This document shows positions 21,342 through 56,591 of a stretch of 64,000 nucleotides of DNA, in pieces. Each line of letters opens with the position of its first letter. The stretch's first letter is position 1. The notes beneath the pieces were generated by a model. The model made no database searches, was not told the origin of the DNA, and worked only from the letters and a program-made list of their open reading frames with translations. The translations under genes and the position numbers were made by a program. This DNA comes from a virus: the IMG/VR virus record IMGVR_UViG_3300030390_001024, positions 11,861 to 75,860 of that record; one strand, 5' to 3'.

Positions 21342-21428
21342 TTATTTTTTAAGTGCATGGGAACCATCACAGCTTCCATCAGAATTCTGCGTGTTACCAC
21401 ATACACATTGTTGTCTATTATTATTCAT
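21342..21428 (-). CDS. 28-aa CDGSH-type iron-sulfur microprotein (not in ORF track)
   Basis: Manual translation gives MNNNRQQCVCGNTQNSDGSCDGSHALKK*, with CxC...CDGSH 3Cys-1His ligands. It sits 5 nt from both neighbours. Confidence 0.75.
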   Translation of the reverse strand: MNNNRQQCVCGNTQNSDGSCDGSHALKK

Positions 21429-21433
21429 ATCTT

Positions 21434-21775
21434 TTATTTTTTATAAGCTCTACGTGCAGTTTTTCTCATCATTCCTTTCTTAGTACCACCACCTTTTTTC
21501 ATCTTATTCATCATAGGATCTAATACTGAACCACTACCATTACTAAACATTTCTAAACCACCTGCTGCAGCCATTGTTTCCATAGCCATTGCTTGTGGAG
21601 TAAGATCTCTCATTCCATCATCTGATGATGTAAAACCTCCAGCTCCAGTCGCCATTAAGGTATCTCCTCCCATATTATATCTTTTCATTTTATTTTCTTT
21701 TTTCTTTTTTTTCTTTGCTGAGGAGCTTCCTCCTATTTTGTAATTCATTCCAGCTCTTGACATATTGTTTGGCAT
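21434..21775 (-). CDS. small K/M/G-rich protein with repeated xxGG motifs (probable internal virion protein)
   Basis: YKIGG, YNMGG, AAAGG, MKKGG motifs and a poly-Lys tract. Confidence 0.65.
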   Translation of the reverse strand: MPNNMSRAGMNYKIGGSSSAKKKKKKENKMKRYNMGGDTLMATGAGGFTSSDDGMRDLTPQAMAMETMAAAGGLEMFSNGSGSVLDPMMNKMKKGGGTKKGMMRKTARRAYKK

Positions 21776-21787
21776 AATTTCTAATTT

Positions 21788-22189
21788 TTATTTGTTATTG
21801 TTTTTTACTTTTTCTAATGAACGTCCTCCAAAGTATGCACCTATTACTGTAATTAAAACTAATTGTAATAGATCAACCCAGGAAGCTTTGACATCAAATG
21901 CTATAAAGCCTGCATCAACAAATACTAACAATACTGTTGATACTACTAAAAATATTAATGTCATTGGTCTTACGTTTTTACTTAACCAACTATCTGAATT
22001 CATATCTGAACTCCATCTTGTTGTTATTTCTTTCTCCATGTTTGCTTCATGCTTGGAGATTAATTCTTTTATCTTTAACTCAGCAGCTAGCTTTTCTTCA
22101 TCAGAAGTATGTAGCCCATCTATAACACTACCAATACCAACAACTAATTCTTTAGCTCCACTTGAAAATATTTTACTTAGTATACTCAT
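21788..22189 (-). CDS. holin (GTA 3TM-holin-like)
   Basis: TSDEEKL...RWSSDMNSDSWLSKNVRP, then TM helices and YFGGRSLEK. Confidence 0.8.
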   Translation of the reverse strand: MSILSKIFSSGAKELVVGIGSVIDGLHTSDEEKLAAELKIKELISKHEANMEKEITTRWSSDMNSDSWLSKNVRPMTLIFLVVSTVLLVFVDAGFIAFDVKASWVDLLQLVLITVIGAYFGGRSLEKVKNNNK

Positions 22190-23940: not shown

Positions 23941-23968
23941 AATAATTTATTTTAATACACTATATTAA

Positions 23969-24054
23969 TAATATACAAAATTTGAAGCACCCAGTCAAAT
24001 ATTATATTATATTTGTTCTATCTGGATGATTAGTGTATAATAATAATATACAAA
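23969..24054 (-). promoter_or_regulatory. two copies of putative phage promoter motif TTTGTATATTA
   Basis: Exact copies at 23969-23979 and 24044-24054; a third at 56581-56591. Confidence 0.5.
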
Positions 24055-25213: not shown

Positions 25214-26839
25214 ATGGAATACAAAAAATATTACTGGCTTAATAATGATAGCAGAACGTTTCTGTCTAGAGGATATATAACTGAAACACCAGAACAAAGA
25301 ATAAAAGACATTGCTATTAAGGCAGAAAAATATTTAAATATTAAAGGGTTTGCAGAAAAGTTTGAAGACTATATGGCACGTGGGTTTTACTCTCTATCTA
25401 CACCTGTATGGATTAACTTTGGTAAACAAAAGGGGTTACCTATTAGTTGTTATGGTTCTAATATAGATGATAACTTAGATAGTATACTTAACGCAGGCCG
25501 TGAAATAGGAATGATGAGTAAGTATGGTGGAGGCACAAGTGCTTTCCTAGGAAACATCAGGCCAAGAGGTAGTGAAATATCTACAGGTGGTCATGCTGAT
25601 GGGCCTATTCACTATGCTAGAATGTATGACACAGTAGTTGATGTATGTAAACAATCAGAAGCTAGACGTGGTGCTTGTGCAGTGTACTTACCTGTAGAGC
25701 ATGCAGATATACTAGAGTTCTTAGATATAGGTACTGAAGGTAACCCTATACAAAACTTGCAGTATGGTGTTACCGTTACTGACCAATGGATGGAAGAGAT
25801 GAAAACAGGAGACAGGAAGAAGCGTAAAGTATGGGCTAAGATCATACAACGTAGGTCTGAGTTTGGTTATCCTTATATAATGTTTAAAGATAATAGTAAT
25901 AATAACTCTCCATACAAAGATATAGGGCTTGAAATTACAGCATCAAATCTATGCTCAGAGATTCAGCTACCAACAGATAGTTATAATTCTTTTGTGTGTT
26001 GCTTAGGATCTATTAACCTGTTACACTGGGATGAAATTAAAGAGACGGATGCAGTACAAACCTATGTTTACTTTTTGAATGCTGTTATGGATGAGTTCAT
26101 TATCAAGTCAGAAACAATGCCTGGGATGAAGAGAGCCTATAATTTTGCTGAAAAACATAGAGCAATTGGTTTAGGTGTATTAGGATACCATTCTTTATTT
26201 CAATCAAAGCTTATTGACTTTGAATCATTAGAAGCTAAACAACTTAACTCAGAAATATTTAGAACAATAAAAGATAGAAGTGAGATAGCCTCAAGAAAAC
26301 TAAATTCAGAATATGGATATAGATCTTTAAGAGAAGGTTATGCTAATACTACACTCATGGCTATAGCTCCTACTAAGTCTAGTTCATTTATACATGGTGC
26401 TGTATCTATGGGTATTGAGCCTATTAAGTCTAACTACTTTATCAAAGATCTTGCTAAGTCTAAAACAGTTTATAAAAATCCTTTTTTAGAGTGTGAGTTA
26501 GAAAAGCATGGTATAAACAATGATAAAACATGGAAGTCTATACTTAAAAAAGATGGGAGTGTACAACACTTAGACTTTCCTACTAAGACTGTCTTTAAGT
26601 CATTTGTAGAAATAACACCAAAGGAGTTAGTATTACAAGCTGCACAAAGACAAAAGTATATTGATCAATCACAATCACTTAACTTAATGATAGATCCCTC
26701 TGTATCAGCTAAACAAATCAATCAGTTATATTTGTATGCACATGAAGAAGGAGTAAAAACTTTATACTATCAGTTTAGTAAAAGTTCTGCACAGGACTTT
26801 GCAAGAAACATTCTAGAGTGTACTAGCTGTGAGGGTTAG
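25214..26839 (+). CDS. nrdA: ribonucleotide reductase class Ia alpha subunit (no ATP cone)
   Basis: PISC, ASNLCSEI, VCCLGSIN, APTKSSS, KTLYY and C-terminal CTSCEG. Start is probably 25214 (alternative 25190). Confidence 0.95.
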   Translation: MEYKKYYWLNNDSRTFLSRGYITETPEQRIKDIAIKAEKYLNIKGFAEKFEDYMARGFYSLSTPVWINFGKQKGLPISCYGSNIDDNLDSILNAGREIGMMSKYGGGTSAFLGNIRPRGSEISTGGHADGPIHYARMYDTVVDVCKQSEARRGACAVYLPVEHADILEFLDIGTEGNPIQNLQYGVTVTDQWMEEMKTGDRKKRKVWAKIIQRRSEFGYPYIMFKDNSNNNSPYKDIGLEITASNLCSEIQLPTDSYNSFVCCLGSINLLHWDEIKETDAVQTYVYFLNAVMDEFIIKSETMPGMKRAYNFAEKHRAIGLGVLGYHSLFQSKLIDFESLEAKQLNSEIFRTIKDRSEIASRKLNSEYGYRSLREGYANTTLMAIAPTKSSSFIHGAVSMGIEPIKSNYFIKDLAKSKTVYKNPFLECELEKHGINNDKTWKSILKKDGSVQHLDFPTKTVFKSFVEITPKELVLQAAQRQKYIDQSQSLNLMIDPSVSAKQINQLYLYAHEEGVKTLYYQFSKSSAQDFARNILECTSCEG

Positions 26840-26943
26840 TCTTTAATAAAGACTACAATATCACAACTATGACAAAAGTAATATTTGTCATCACCTGCAC
26901 CAGAATAATAAGTCATTGCTGAATTGCATTTTTTACATCTCAT
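26836..26943 (-). CDS. 35-aa zinc-ribbon microprotein (not in ORF track)
   Basis: MRCKKCNSAMTYYSGAGDDKYYFCHSCDIVVFIKD*, with two CxxC; its stop overlaps the nrdA stop. Confidence 0.6.
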   Translation of the reverse strand: MRCKKCNSAMTYYSGAGDDKYYFCHSCDIVVFIKD

Positions 26944-26945
26944 AT

Positions 26946-27032
26946 TTACTTTTGCTTTAAATCATCTATTAATAGTTGACAAACTGTAAAAATAATAAAT
27001 ATATAAAATACTAAAAGTGTATATTTTTCCAC
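26946..27032 (-). CDS. putative 28-aa membrane peptide (GTG start, not in ORF track)
   Basis: MEKYTLLVFYIFIIFTVCQLLIDDLKQK*; abuts the upstream TAG and fills the gap. Confidence 0.4.
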   Translation of the reverse strand: MEKYTLLVFYIFIIFTVCQLLIDDLKQK

Positions 27033-27452
27033 CTAGTAACTTGCTTCACGCCTAACCACCTCTATAGCCCTGACCATTTTGTTATAGTCTACAGGACATA
27101 ATAGATCAAGCTTTGCTCTTGCTGTAAATTTAATGTATGCATCACCCTTTAAATATAACAGTAAAGTTGGTGCCATTCTAATTCTAAGTTCTTTTTTTAA
27201 TTTTGGTGAGGTAGCAATATCACATCTATAATATGTGACTCCCTCAAGATTGTTGATTTTTTTCCAGTCTGGAAATGCATTGTCTTTATTAAAGTCTGCC
27301 CAAAACTCTACTACAATAACATTATCTTCTCCATCTTCGTCAAATGCAGATGCTCCTGTAACCTTCTCCTCAAAGTCTTTATCTGTGATCCATTCCTGAG
27401 ACAGTACAGTTGTTGTTGTTAAAAGCAATAATACTGTAAGAATGTACTTCAT
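27033..27452 (-). CDS. secreted thioredoxin-fold protein lacking CxxC
   Basis: Signal peptide (VLS|Q). VIVVEFWADFN replaces VVDFWAxWCxxC; cis-Pro motif IRMAPTLLLY retained. Confidence 0.75.
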   Translation of the reverse strand: MKYILTVLLLLTTTTVLSQEWITDKDFEEKVTGASAFDEDGEDNVIVVEFWADFNKDNAFPDWKKINNLEGVTYYRCDIATSPKLKKELRIRMAPTLLLYLKGDAYIKFTARAKLDLLCPVDYNKMVRAIEVVRREASY

Positions 27453-27453
27453 C

Positions 27454-27744
27454 TTATTTCTTTTTAGTTAACTCGTAGATTCTCTCTTCCATTTTGTCAA
27501 ACTTTTCTAATAATGATTCTACATCTTCTTGAGTATCCATAATGGTTTGTCTAATTAACTCATCTTTTAAATCATACTCTACTCTTTCTATTGGAGGTTT
27601 TGGGTTCTCCATTGCAGTAGCTATATCTGCTTTTAATGTAAACCACATTGTTGATAATGAAATTACAAATCCCACAATCATTCCAATTGTCTTAAGGTCT
27701 AAGGTTACTTGTGTTTTTTCTCCTATCTCTGGTACTCCCGCCAT
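27454..27744 (-). CDS. single-TM membrane protein with C-terminal coiled coil
   Basis: TM IGMIVGFVISLSTMWFTL followed by a heptad-like acidic helix. Confidence 0.7.
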   Translation of the reverse strand: MAGVPEIGEKTQVTLDLKTIGMIVGFVISLSTMWFTLKADIATAMENPKPPIERVEYDLKDELIRQTIMDTQEDVESLLEKFDKMEERIYELTKKK

Positions 27745-27756
27745 TGTTTTATTTTT

Positions 27757-28974
27757 TTACTTGAATGTATAATTTAATCCTAATGTTGTTTGAAACAACT
27801 CACTGTCCCACATCTTTGAGTATTCTCCTTCCATAAACACTCCTATATTTTTATTTATCTTCCAACCTAAGTTAGCACCAAAAGAATAGTCTGCCCATTG
27901 TTCTGGATCATTATCTAAAATTAAGCCACCCTTACCCCAGTTATTTCTATTTAAATAAGAAACAACCTCATCTCCTTTTAAGTATCTGTGGTATGGTAGT
28001 ATATAGTTAGCATATGCATGTATCCAAAAGTTTCTTTTGTAATGATAGAAGTCCATTCCTAGTATAGGTGCTACCTCACCAAATGCAGGTATCTCTGATA
28101 ATGATTCTCTATTAAAGCGGTTCATCAAATCTGTAAATACAGTTTCTCTGAAATCAATATCAGAATAAGCTACAATAGTTCCATCTTGATCTTTCCATAT
28201 CCAGTCTTGCATCTCTTCTCCTGTATTTGCATCTGTATATGTAGTAAGATGATCAGTATAACCGTATTCAAATCCTAAAGTATACCATGGATGTACAGGA
28301 AACTCAAACTCATTCCCGTCTTGATCCATATATATTTCTGTTTCATTAAGCCATATCTCAACTGGGTTATAACCATATGCACGGCTATGAGTTCTATAGA
28401 TTGCACCTGCAGAGATACTAAACTTTTCTCCTAAAGGTAACCTTAATCTTGCTTCTGCTGATTCATAGGCTAAATTTATCTTTCCTACCTCTCTTGACTC
28501 AACTTTAAAGATGTGATGATCTCCTGTATGCTTTATAAAGAACCTGTGGTTTCTAAACATCTCACCTCTCCAACGTTCTTTTTCCCAATGTAATTGATAT
28601 TCTAAACCTTTTAATGCAGAACTTGGGGCACTAAATGCAAGCTGTTCTTCTGTACCATCATAAAAATTTCTTGGCTTTCTCTCATAACTAAACCTTGCTA
28701 GCTTTCTAATACCAAAACCAATTCTATAATCAAATGGGTAGTCAGGCGTATTATCTACTACAACAGGTATATCATAAAGACCATCGCCATCCCCTGTTCT
28801 TACAAAATAGGTTGACACATCTTCTTCTATAGAGTTGTTTAGATCAGCAGCTCCATATATAGTACCATATTTAATAAAGTCTTTATATAAGGATTTAAAA
28901 AATGGTGAACTATCTTGAGCAGAAGCACCATTTATAACCAATATACATACTAATAAACTTACATATCTTTTCAT
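27757..28974 (-). CDS. putative outer-membrane beta-barrel protein
   Basis: Signal peptide (ASA|Q), alternating aromatic beta-strands, C-terminal beta-signal-like LGLNYTFK. Confidence 0.65.
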   Translation of the reverse strand: MKRYVSLLVCILVINGASAQDSSPFFKSLYKDFIKYGTIYGAADLNNSIEEDVSTYFVRTGDGDGLYDIPVVVDNTPDYPFDYRIGFGIRKLARFSYERKPRNFYDGTEEQLAFSAPSSALKGLEYQLHWEKERWRGEMFRNHRFFIKHTGDHHIFKVESREVGKINLAYESAEARLRLPLGEKFSISAGAIYRTHSRAYGYNPVEIWLNETEIYMDQDGNEFEFPVHPWYTLGFEYGYTDHLTTYTDANTGEEMQDWIWKDQDGTIVAYSDIDFRETVFTDLMNRFNRESLSEIPAFGEVAPILGMDFYHYKRNFWIHAYANYILPYHRYLKGDEVVSYLNRNNWGKGGLILDNDPEQWADYSFGANLGWKINKNIGVFMEGEYSKMWDSELFQTTLGLNYTFK

Positions 28975-29068
28975 AGTGTAGTTTTGTTATGTTAATACGT
29001 ATTGGTTTATATAATAATATAAGAACTTTTTATGAATCTAAGAAGAACTTAACCTGAAAATTTGACAT

Positions 29069-56570: not shown

Positions 56571-56580
56571 ATTATATTAT

Positions 56581-56591
56581 TAATATACAAA
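56581..56591 (-). promoter_or_regulatory. putative phage promoter motif TTTGTATATTA
   Basis: Same 11-mer as at 23969 and 24044, 10 nt upstream of the 56570 start. Confidence 0.5.

What the first reader, a model, noticed from the sequence alone, without database searches (positions are those of the whole stretch)
26836..29025. Phage-encoded trans-envelope operon: OM beta-barrel + inner-membrane coiled-coil + periplasmic Cys-less thioredoxin (+2 micro-ORFs)
Seen: a unit with its own upstream motif (29015-29025) and gaps of 12, 1, 0 and 2 nt. It encodes a signal-peptide barrel with a large acidic loop region, a single-TM coiled-coil protein, a secreted Trx-fold protein, a TM peptide and a CxxC-CxxC peptide. 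Both secreted proteins have Gln right after the predicted cleavage site (ASA|Q, VLS|Q), matching the Bacteroidota Q-rule. Inference: components for all three envelope compartments suggest an undescribed complex, such as superinfection exclusion or receptor masking, a nutrient or metal uptake channel, or a non-canonical spanin substitute (no lipoprotein o-spanin is seen near the holin).
Basis: partly seen in the sequence, partly recalled or inferred. Interest (0 to 1): 0.7.

Follow-up and report, generated by a model that had tools for sequence, protein, structure and literature searches.

The report
Phage outer-membrane barrel trio, lysis-linked
An uncultured marine phage of Bacteroidota carries three always-linked genes (an outer-membrane barrel, an inner-membrane helical protein and an exported thioredoxin without its active site); many relatives keep them beside the cell-bursting genes, so they may be an undescribed way of opening the host's outer membrane, though nothing has been tested.

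Summary
Five abutting minus-strand ORFs (405, 96, 139, 28 and 35 aa; gaps 12, 1, 0 and 2 nt) lie at 26836-28974.

- **405-aa protein:** it has a signal peptide and folds as a roughly 12-stranded outer-membrane barrel. Its family is found only in viruses and has no Pfam, PDB or cultured-phage relative.
- **96-aa protein:** one membrane helix followed by a helical tail.
- **139-aa protein:** an exported thioredoxin fold in which the CxxC site is replaced by an invariant NxxN. It is not literally Cys-less.
- **Core unit:** the first three genes stay together, in the same order, in all 34 IMG/VR loci that reach past the barrel gene and in a clade only about 31% identical. The two micro-ORFs occur only in close lineages.
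- **Lysis link:** in several lineages the trio directly abuts endolysins of three unrelated families and holins of two families.
- **This window:** the holin is 4.8 kb away, and the endolysin is not on this 66%-complete contig.

The best reading, at about 0.4, is an envelope-spanning module that does or assists the outer-membrane step of lysis. This scan has noted the same trio before on other DNA (at least 51 genomes), and follow-up agents reached the same reading. I re-tested the lysis linkage independently.

The parts
29004..29064 (-). Conserved upstream element in the 94-nt gap after the 1932-aa gene. It consists of CAAATTTTCAG (29054-29064) and TATATTATTATATAAACC (29004-29021), and is promoter-like.
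   Evidence: Both boxes are conserved at the same place upstream of the barrel gene in L002, L005-L008 and L013. The second box is also conserved in L028. The full boxes are unique in the window. The core is a variant, one base shorter, of a motif that recurs at 23961, 24036 and 56573. Promoter function is inferred.
27757..28974 (-). 405-aa exported protein predicted to be an outer-membrane beta-barrel of about 12 strands. It carries an acidic insert of about 100 aa (residues 197-297) in a predicted surface loop.
   Evidence: AlphaFold2 model: pLDDT 74, pTM 0.69. All significant Foldseek PDB hits are outer-membrane barrels. The top VIA-align hits, Z 10.1-10.8, are 10-14-stranded barrels: Tsx, OpcA, EstA, NanC, CymA, KdgM, NalP. 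Most strands alternate polar and hydrophobic residues. The family has 2273 homologues, all unnamed. No Pfam family matches any of 32 members.
27454..27744 (-). 96-aa single-pass inner-membrane protein. The N-terminus is inferred to be cytoplasmic and the 58-aa helical acidic tail periplasmic.
   Evidence: One hydrophobic helix at about residues 20-38. The family is very conserved, with 66% mean column identity. Longer homologues carry an N-terminal domain that matches the cytoplasmic c-di-GMP-binding MshE N-domain: 5htl, rmsd 1.8 A over 57 aligned columns, 30% identity. That places the N-terminus inside the cell.
27033..27452 (-). 139-aa exported thioredoxin-fold protein. The CxxC site is replaced by invariant Asn55...Asn58, and the cis-Pro loop is kept.
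   Evidence: Pfam Thioredoxin E 4.9e-6, 26.9 bits against a cut-off of 23.5. The family profile matches solved thioredoxins down to E 2e-10 and aligns its FNxxN stretch (Phe54, Asn55...Asn58) with WCGPC. E49, F50, F54, N55, N58, P95 and Q19 are invariant in 21 orthologues.
26946..27032 (-). 28-aa ORF with one hydrophobic helix. It is lineage-specific and not part of the core.
   Evidence: Present only in L002-L004, with identical protein sequence and 4 synonymous codon changes.
26836..26943 (-). 35-aa CxxC...CxxC zinc-ribbon-like micro-protein. It is lineage-specific and not part of the core.
   Evidence: Weak zinc-ribbon Pfam matches. The Cys pattern is kept in L002-L004, L006/L026 and L007. 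Absent elsewhere.
21788..22189 (-). 133-aa holin. It is context, not part of the cassette, and is the nearest recognisable lysis gene in this window, 4.8 kb downstream on the same strand.
   Evidence: phrog_3427 'holin', E 1.3e-30. Weak Pfam GTA_holin_3TM match. Homologues lie 0.5-1.6 kb from the trio in L033, L036, L041, L042 and L046.

Best explanation
The three genes encode one envelope-spanning module that the phage installs in its Bacteroidota host late in infection.

**Proposed placement.** The 405-aa barrel would be inserted in the outer membrane. The 96-aa protein sits in the inner membrane with its helical tail in the periplasm. The exported thioredoxin fold, which lacks its redox site but keeps the substrate-binding face (NxxN plus cis-Pro), would act as a periplasmic adaptor between the other two.

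**Proposed function.** The module does or assists the last step of lysis, breaching the outer membrane once the holin and endolysin have removed the cell wall. It would take the role that an inner-membrane/lipoprotein spanin pair plays in other phages.

**Shown here:** the folds, the export signals, the strict three-gene linkage, and the position inside lysis cassettes of relatives.

**Inferred:** the topology of the 96-aa protein, the contacts among the three proteins, and the lytic function itself.
For: 1. **Strict linkage.** Barrel, membrane-helix and thioredoxin-fold genes occur in this order, nearly always abutting, in all 34 IMG/VR loci that reach past the barrel gene. One further locus ends inside the second gene. 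This holds even where the flanks differ. In L014/L015 the unit is inverted as a block between the RNR genes and the giant virion-protein gene.
2. **Deep conservation.** A clade whose barrel is only about 31% identical keeps all three in 9 of 9 loci with enough sequence.
3. **Strong constraint.** Against L005 the 1932-aa neighbour is 37% identical, while the barrel is 82% and the 96-aa protein 89% identical.
4. **Lysis linkage in relatives.**
   - A PG_binding_1 + Amidase_2 endolysin starts 12-27 nt after the thioredoxin gene, with a Phage_holin_4_1 holin 0.9 kb on, in L021, L023, L024 and L029.
   - A Peptidase_M15_3 endolysin (phrog_894) lies 11-1430 nt downstream in 8 loci.
   - A phrog_33083 endolysin-like gene plus a holin lie downstream in L016-L020 and L025.
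   - A phrog_3427 holin lies 0.5-1.6 kb away in 5 loci.
   - Three unrelated endolysin families beside the same trio argue for a maintained functional link, not one inherited arrangement.
5. **Architecture fits a periplasm-spanning set.** Export signals follow the Bacteroidota Gln+1 rule (PMC5837995). The barrel is predicted with outer-membrane barrel neighbours only. N-in topology follows from the MshE-type domain in long homologues.
6. **No lipoprotein near the holin.** My crude lipobox scan of this contig found no credible lipoprotein gene. Its single pattern match, in the 100-aa ORF at 1933-2235, has no N-terminal hydrophobic segment.
Against: - In this window, and in its close relatives, the trio is not beside the endolysin. 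The Amidase_2 gene lies 36-45 kb away in near-complete relatives and has no membrane-protein neighbours.
- Neighbourhood is not function. From my own knowledge, lambda bor sits beside the lysis genes without acting in lysis.
- The 55-92% identity of the barrel is far higher than is usual for spanins, which evolve fast (own knowledge). It would suit an enzyme or a channel as well.
- A 58-aa periplasmic helix is too short to span the periplasm alone.
- Some lineages add lipoproteins and a paralogue of the 96-aa protein. These could be the true spanin pair there.
- One near-complete relative has a 36-aa lipobox ORF 0.9 kb from its endolysin.
- No interaction test could be run.
Confidence: 0.4

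Rival explanations
1. Superinfection exclusion or receptor masking. The barrel, with its acidic surface loop, is displayed on the infected cell and blocks or hides the receptor. This protects the infected cell, or keeps progeny from sticking to debris.
For: There is a precedent for phage-encoded barrels acting this way. Lambda Lom is reported to bind LamB, as cited in the preprint 10.64898/2026.10.24.761521. The large acidic insert, predicted to face outward, carries DxDG-like motifs.
Against: Exclusion genes are usually variable accessories (own knowledge). This trio is kept as a unit down to 31% identity, and the loop region itself is well conserved. It is repeatedly placed beside endolysin and holin genes. 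This reading gives no role to the inner-membrane protein or the thioredoxin fold.
Confidence: 0.15
2. A regulator or sensor of lysis timing rather than the membrane-breaching device. The inner-membrane protein would relay an envelope or second-messenger signal to the holin or endolysin step.
For: In the distant clade the homologue of the 96-aa protein carries a cytoplasmic MshE-type c-di-GMP-binding domain. In L037 an H-NOX gene (PF07700, E 2.3e-45) lies within the module. The linkage to lysis genes fits this reading too.
Against: The protein in this window, and in most lineages, lacks any sensor domain and has only about 19 cytoplasmic residues. A 405-aa barrel is a costly part for a timer.
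Confidence: 0.15
3. A solute channel used as an auxiliary metabolic gene, for example uptake of nucleosides or another anionic nutrient to feed the neighbouring ribonucleotide reductase.
For: The trio lies next to nrdA/nrdB in the window group and in L014-L027, in either orientation. Tsx, NanC and KdgM are among the top structural neighbours, Z 10.2-10.8. Many conserved Arg, Lys and His residues sit on the polar faces of the strands.
Against: Those Z-scores tie with autotransporter and adhesin barrels, so no specific channel family is indicated. The link to RNR is lost in the M15-endolysin lineages and in the distant clade. A single-pass protein cannot carry solutes across the inner membrane.
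Confidence: 0.1
4. Three exported proteins that are merely co-transcribed and act separately, with no complex.
For: No interaction evidence exists. The only fused forms found are singleton ORFs that still contain the internal signal peptide, so they look like sequencing or gene-calling errors.
Against: Order and near-abutting spacing are kept in 34 of 34 and 9 of 9 loci across deep divergence. The set is inverted as one block in L014/L015.
Confidence: 0.1

Closest known systems
Two-component spanins (lambda Rz/Rz1 type; survey in PMC6139136)
   Same: Both have an inner-membrane protein with an N-in single helix and a helical periplasmic tail, encoded immediately before a second exported protein. 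In many relatives both lie inside the lysis cassette. Both would need an outer-membrane partner to bridge the periplasm.
   Different: There is no lipoprotein o-spanin. The gene after the membrane protein is a signal-peptidase-I thioredoxin fold, and the outer-membrane part is a 405-aa integral barrel. The periplasmic helix is only 58 aa. Conservation is much higher than in spanins. There are three parts instead of two. Function is untested.
Phage-encoded outer-membrane barrels (lambda Lom; barrels of huge phages, preprint 10.64898/2026.10.24.761521)
   Same: Both are phage genes with a signal peptide and a predicted transmembrane barrel, expressed in the infected cell's envelope.
   Different: There is no sequence relation to Lom/Ail, OmpA or porin families: no Pfam hit in 32 members. 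The barrel is larger, about 12 strands against 8 for Lom. It is always coupled to two further envelope genes, it occurs in genomes of about 100 kb, and it is linked to lysis genes.
Thioredoxin family (PF00085)
   Same: Clear profile match, a conserved cis-Pro loop and the FWA motif before the active site.
   Different: The protein is exported, and both catalytic Cys are replaced by invariant Asn. Redox activity in the manner of thioredoxin is therefore excluded, and a binding or adaptor role is inferred.
MshE N-terminal (MshEN / GSPII) c-di-GMP-binding domain
   Same: The N-terminal extension of the long homologues (L037 and 7 others) superposes on 5htl and on PilF GSPII-B at rmsd 1.6-2.2 A with 30-38% identity.
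   Different: The extension is absent from the protein in this window. Foldseek E-values are weak (0.011 at best), Pfam does not call the domain, and ligand binding is untested.

Membership tests
Two-component spanin | i-spanin: single N-terminal membrane helix, N-in, with a helical periplasmic domain | tested here: met
   There is one hydrophobic helix at about residues 20-38, followed by a helical tail. N-in is inferred from the cytoplasmic MshE-type domain of long homologues. The heptad pattern is only modest.
Two-component spanin | o-spanin: small outer-membrane lipoprotein with a lipobox Cys, encoded within or just after the i-spanin gene | tested here: not met
   The next gene is a 139-aa thioredoxin fold with a signal-peptidase-I type signal (VLS|Q) and no lipobox. 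My crude scan found no credible lipobox ORF on this contig.
Two-component spanin | Encoded beside the holin and endolysin | tested here: inconclusive
   Not so in this window: the holin is 4.8 kb away and no endolysin is on the contig. It is so in L011, L012, L016-L021, L023-L025, L028-L032, L034 and L035.
Two-component spanin | The two subunits bind and are required for outer-membrane disruption | not testable with these tools
No cultured phage carrying the trio was found.
Thioredoxin (PF00085) | Thioredoxin fold by profile | tested here: met
   Pfam gives 26.9 bits against a cut-off of 23.5. The family profile matches solved thioredoxins down to E 2e-10.
Thioredoxin (PF00085) | CxxC redox site | tested here: not met
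   WCGPC is replaced by an FNxxN stretch (Phe54, Asn55...Asn58). N55 and N58 are invariant in 21 orthologues.
Outer-membrane beta-barrel protein (generic) | Cleavable signal peptide and a closed transmembrane beta-barrel | tested here: met
   A signal-like N-terminus is present in family members that have an N-terminus. The AlphaFold2 model has about 12 long strands. All strong Foldseek and VIA-align neighbours are outer-membrane barrels. No dedicated signal-peptide or barrel-topology predictor was available.
Outer-membrane beta-barrel protein (generic) | C-terminal beta-signal ending in an aromatic residue | tested here: inconclusive
   The last strand ends ...NYTFK, with an aromatic residue at -2 but Lys as the final residue. 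Other members end in F, I, R or K.
Lom/Ail, OmpA or porin families of known phage barrels | Sequence membership (Pfam) | tested here: not met
   No Pfam family matches any of 32 members. A profile search of PDB sequences found nothing at E up to 10.
Specific 12-stranded channels (Tsx, NanC/KdgM) | Fold and pore-lining similarity that stands above other barrels | tested here: inconclusive
   Z is 10.8 (Tsx), 10.4 (NanC) and 10.2 (KdgM). These tie with OpcA at 10.7, EstA at 10.6 and NalP at 10.1.

The most novel reading that the evidence does not exclude
A third kind of outer-membrane-breaching device in phage lysis, after spanins and the membrane-active peptide of phiKT. It would be a lipoprotein-free, three-part machine made of an integral outer-membrane barrel, a thioredoxin fold lacking its active site used as a periplasmic adaptor, and a short inner-membrane helical protein. 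It would be specific to phages of Bacteroidota and widespread in marine viromes. In one clade it would be wired to c-di-GMP or H-NOX sensing.
Probability: 0.3. Interest if true: 0.85.

Novelty: new variant of a known kind. Interest (0 to 1): 0.65.

Why it matters
- **An open question in lysis.** How phages without recognisable spanins open the outer membrane is unresolved. In the survey PMC6139136, 91 of 677 phages had no spanin. For phages of Bacteroidota this step has not, to my knowledge, been studied experimentally.
- **How common the trio is.** It is abundant: 2273 barrel homologues, found in marine metagenomes from about 10 studies. It is found only in viruses and is under strong constraint.
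- **If it is the missing lysis component.** It would show a new protein architecture for membrane disruption and a new use for a thioredoxin fold without its redox site. It would also help annotate a major group of ocean phages.
- **If it is not.** It remains a conserved, unexplained way in which phages rebuild the host envelope.

Tried and rejected
- **No cultured relatives.** Barrel proteins of four sub-lineages, the 96-aa protein and its long homologue all gave no match in the INPHARED phage collection.
- **No cellular relatives found.** A pattern scan of GTDB species genomes found none. That method finds close relatives only.
- **No family name for the barrel.** Pfam, PHROGs and NCBIfam gave nothing. 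PDB sequence search gave nothing. ESM Atlas neighbours are unnamed viral clusters. The one strong BFVD hit (A0A516LKJ4, E 3.8e-26, 22% identity) is unnamed.
- **96-aa protein.** Only a weak match to phrog_1009, of unknown function. The Atlas leads (DUF2730 and others, scores 0.81-0.87) are below a usable level.
- **Fusions as evidence of contact.** The two 227-229-aa forms that join the membrane helix to the thioredoxin fold are singletons that keep the internal signal peptide. I rejected them as probable errors.
- **Expression.** Contigs from three marine RNA libraries (two studies) resemble the trio and the RNR genes at 85-99%. Contigs cannot show transcription, strand or timing, and DNA carry-over is possible. 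I do not use this as evidence.
- **Endolysin on this contig.** Amidase_2, Phage_lysozyme and SLT were not found. The contig is only 66% complete.
- **Accessory genes of relatives.** The two lipoprotein families, a PAP2-like gene and H-NOX are absent from this genome.
- **Membrane-protein scan.** My own hydrophobicity scan is crude and missed known cases. I drew no conclusions from it beyond the lack of lipobox ORFs.

Full report
**What is there.** The window is part of a 75,860-bp IMG/VR virus record that CheckV rates 66% complete. G+C is about 31%.

The minus strand carries a long run of giant genes (4387, 2117, 1932, 1103, 933 and 781 aa). The run ends in the five ORFs of the finding: 405, 96, 139, 28 and 35 aa, with gaps of 12, 1, 0 and 2 nt. 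They converge on nrdB/nrdA, which lie on the plus strand.

The plus-strand block upstream holds a primase and a DNA polymerase. The 781-aa protein has a short match to gut crAss-like phages. 'crAss-like' is therefore a weakly supported label here.

**The three core proteins.**

*The 405-aa protein.*
- It begins with a signal-peptide-like segment ending ASA|Q.
- AlphaFold2, run on a 32-sequence alignment, gives pLDDT 74 and pTM 0.69 with about 12 long strands.
- Every Foldseek PDB hit at E <= 0.001 is an outer-membrane barrel.
- An exhaustive structural comparison puts 10-14-stranded barrels on top at Z 10.1-10.8: Tsx, OpcA, EstA, NanC, CymA, KdgM, NalP. These are tied, so no particular barrel family is indicated.
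- Most strands alternate polar and hydrophobic residues. Residues 197-297 form an acidic insert with 21 acidic and 5 basic residues.

*The 96-aa protein.* It has one membrane helix and a 58-aa acidic helical tail.

*The 139-aa protein.*
- It has a signal peptide ending VLS|Q and matches Pfam Thioredoxin above the curated cut-off.
- A profile of 21 orthologues matches solved thioredoxins down to E 2e-10. Its FNxxN stretch (Phe54, Asn55...Asn58) aligns with the WCGPC site. Both Asn and the cis-Pro are invariant.
- It carries two non-conserved Cys, so it lacks CxxC but is not Cys-less.

*Host signal.* Gln right after the predicted cleavage site is invariant in the thioredoxin family and near-universal in the barrel family. 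This fits the Bacteroidota Q-rule (PMC5837995, PMC10653852) and points to a Bacteroidota host.

**Is it a unit?**
- The barrel family has 2273 homologues in the large protein collection, all unnamed, on contigs up to about 125 kb and often from Tara or other marine data.
- At 50% clustering there are 252 clusters.
- A scan of IMG/VR gave 35 loci. All 34 that reach past the barrel gene have barrel, membrane-helix and thioredoxin genes in that order, nearly always abutting. The remaining locus, L022, ends inside the second gene.
- The flanks vary. In L014/L015 the trio is inverted as a block between the RNR genes and the giant gene.
- A second scan, seeded with a 31%-identical barrel, found another clade. 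All 9 of its loci with enough sequence keep the three genes, with extra genes interleaved.
- Constraint is strong. Against L005 the neighbouring 1932-aa protein is 37% identical, while the barrel is 82%, the 96-aa protein 89% and the thioredoxin fold 55% identical.
- The two micro-ORFs are probably real genes but are confined to close lineages.
- The 94-nt gap upstream holds two boxes conserved at the orthologous site in related phages. The second box is a variant, one base shorter, of a motif that recurs in other intergenic regions of the window.

**Link to lysis.** I first noticed that the distant clade keeps the module among membrane-protein genes, including a homologue of the window's 133-aa protein. 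PHROGs files that protein as a holin at E 1.3e-30. After reading earlier notes of this scan I tested the endolysin link directly.

- In L021, L023, L024 and L029 a PG_binding_1 + Amidase_2 endolysin starts 12-27 nt after the thioredoxin gene. A Phage_holin_4_1 holin follows 0.9 kb on.
- In L011, L012, L028, L030-L032, L034 and L035 a Peptidase_M15_3 endolysin lies 11-1430 nt downstream.
- In L016-L020 and L025 a phrog_33083 endolysin-like gene and a holin follow.
- In five further loci the phrog_3427 holin is 0.5-1.6 kb away.
- So three unrelated endolysin families and two holin families sit next to the same trio. This is hard to explain without a functional tie.

In the window's own lineage the lysis genes are scattered. 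The holin is 4.8 kb downstream, with the RNR genes and a fibre gene in between. In four larger relatives (76-100% complete) the Amidase_2 endolysin lies 36-45 kb away, among genes for soluble proteins.

**Topology.**
- The homologues in the distant clade are 186-222 aa long, with an N-terminal extension.
- A model of the L037 protein places a small helical domain in that extension.
- Its best matches in the PDB are the c-di-GMP-binding N-domain of MshE (5htl; rmsd 1.8 A over 57 aligned columns, 30% identity) and PilF GSPII-B.
- These are cytoplasmic domains, so the family is N-in and the helical tail is periplasmic.
- This is an inference for the window's protein, which lacks the extension.

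**Reading.** An outer-membrane barrel, an exported adaptor-like fold and an N-in membrane protein with a periplasmic helix are inherited as one unit and repeatedly placed in lysis cassettes. The most economical reading is a periplasm-spanning module for the outer-membrane step of lysis, a functional analogue of spanins built from different parts. I put this at about 0.4.

Points against this reading:
- the scattered arrangement in this very genome;
- conservation far above what spanins show;
- the short periplasmic helix;
- the presence in some lineages of lipoproteins and of a paralogue of the 96-aa protein, which could be the real spanins there;
- the complete lack of interaction or functional data.

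Rival readings are a lysis-timing sensor, superinfection exclusion, a solute channel tied to the RNR genes, and three independent genes. None is excluded.

**Novelty.** I found no description of this trio in the searched literature. Phage-encoded barrels as a class are known: Lom, and the barrels of huge phages in the preprint 10.64898/2026.10.24.761521. Spanins as a class are known too (PMC6139136). I therefore rate this a new variant of a known kind, with a categorically new mechanism still possible. Within this scan the trio has already been noted in at least 51 genomes, and follow-up agents reached the same reading. My lysis-linkage test used my own loci and agrees with them.

**Limits.**
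- The contig is incomplete.

Noticed in passing
L037:8413-9632 (also L039, L041, L043, L045, L046, L049, L051): In the distant clade the homologue of the 96-aa protein carries an N-terminal MshE-type, c-di-GMP-binding-like domain. In L037 an H-NOX gene (PF07700, E 2.3e-45) sits directly upstream of it. This is a possible second-messenger or gas-sensing input to a phage envelope module.
   Followed up: partly
L014:7893-9213; L019:7230-7781; L007:7173-7588; L031:8550-8960; L041:7301-7876: Two unrelated lipoprotein families (about 180-200 aa and about 130-145 aa) are inserted in or next to the trio in some lineages. A paralogue of the 96-aa protein is also present in L011 and L014/L015. None of these is in this window's genome.
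   Followed up: partly
window 23961-23975, 24036-24050, 56573-56587: The motif TATATTATTAWTATA recurs in intergenic regions: 6 matches counting both strands, against 0.54 expected. It is probably a phage promoter element. The cassette carries a variant one base shorter.
   Followed up: partly
G001:C1:12580-12690 (L056:6581-6691, minus strand): The closest near-complete relative has a 36-aa ORF with a classical lipobox and a Cys-rich 20-aa mature part. It is wedged between small basic-protein genes 0.9 kb upstream of the Amidase_2 endolysin. It could be a mini o-spanin. It was not found in the other amidase loci or in this contig.
   Followed up: partly
L027:7962-8219: In one lineage an ordinary cytoplasmic thioredoxin with an intact WCGPC site is encoded 44 nt after the exported thioredoxin fold that lacks CxxC. 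It is followed by what look like queuosine-pathway genes.
   Followed up: no
L039:9927-10565; L043:9091-9747; L039:9520-9780: The distant clade keeps further envelope-related genes beside the module. By eye these are a PAP2-like phosphatase motif, a membrane protein with a cyclic-nucleotide-binding-like C-terminus, and a 2-helix holin-like protein.
   Followed up: no
window 21342-21775: Just downstream of the holin lie a very basic, Gly/Met/Lys-rich 113-aa ORF and a 28-aa Cys/His micro-ORF. Another reader has already noted them. Their function is unknown.
   Followed up: no
P0393, P0395, P0391: Some singleton database proteins read through from the 96-aa gene into the thioredoxin gene, or from the paralogue into the 96-aa gene. 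They may be assembly or gene-calling errors, or read-through of a stop codon.
   Followed up: partly
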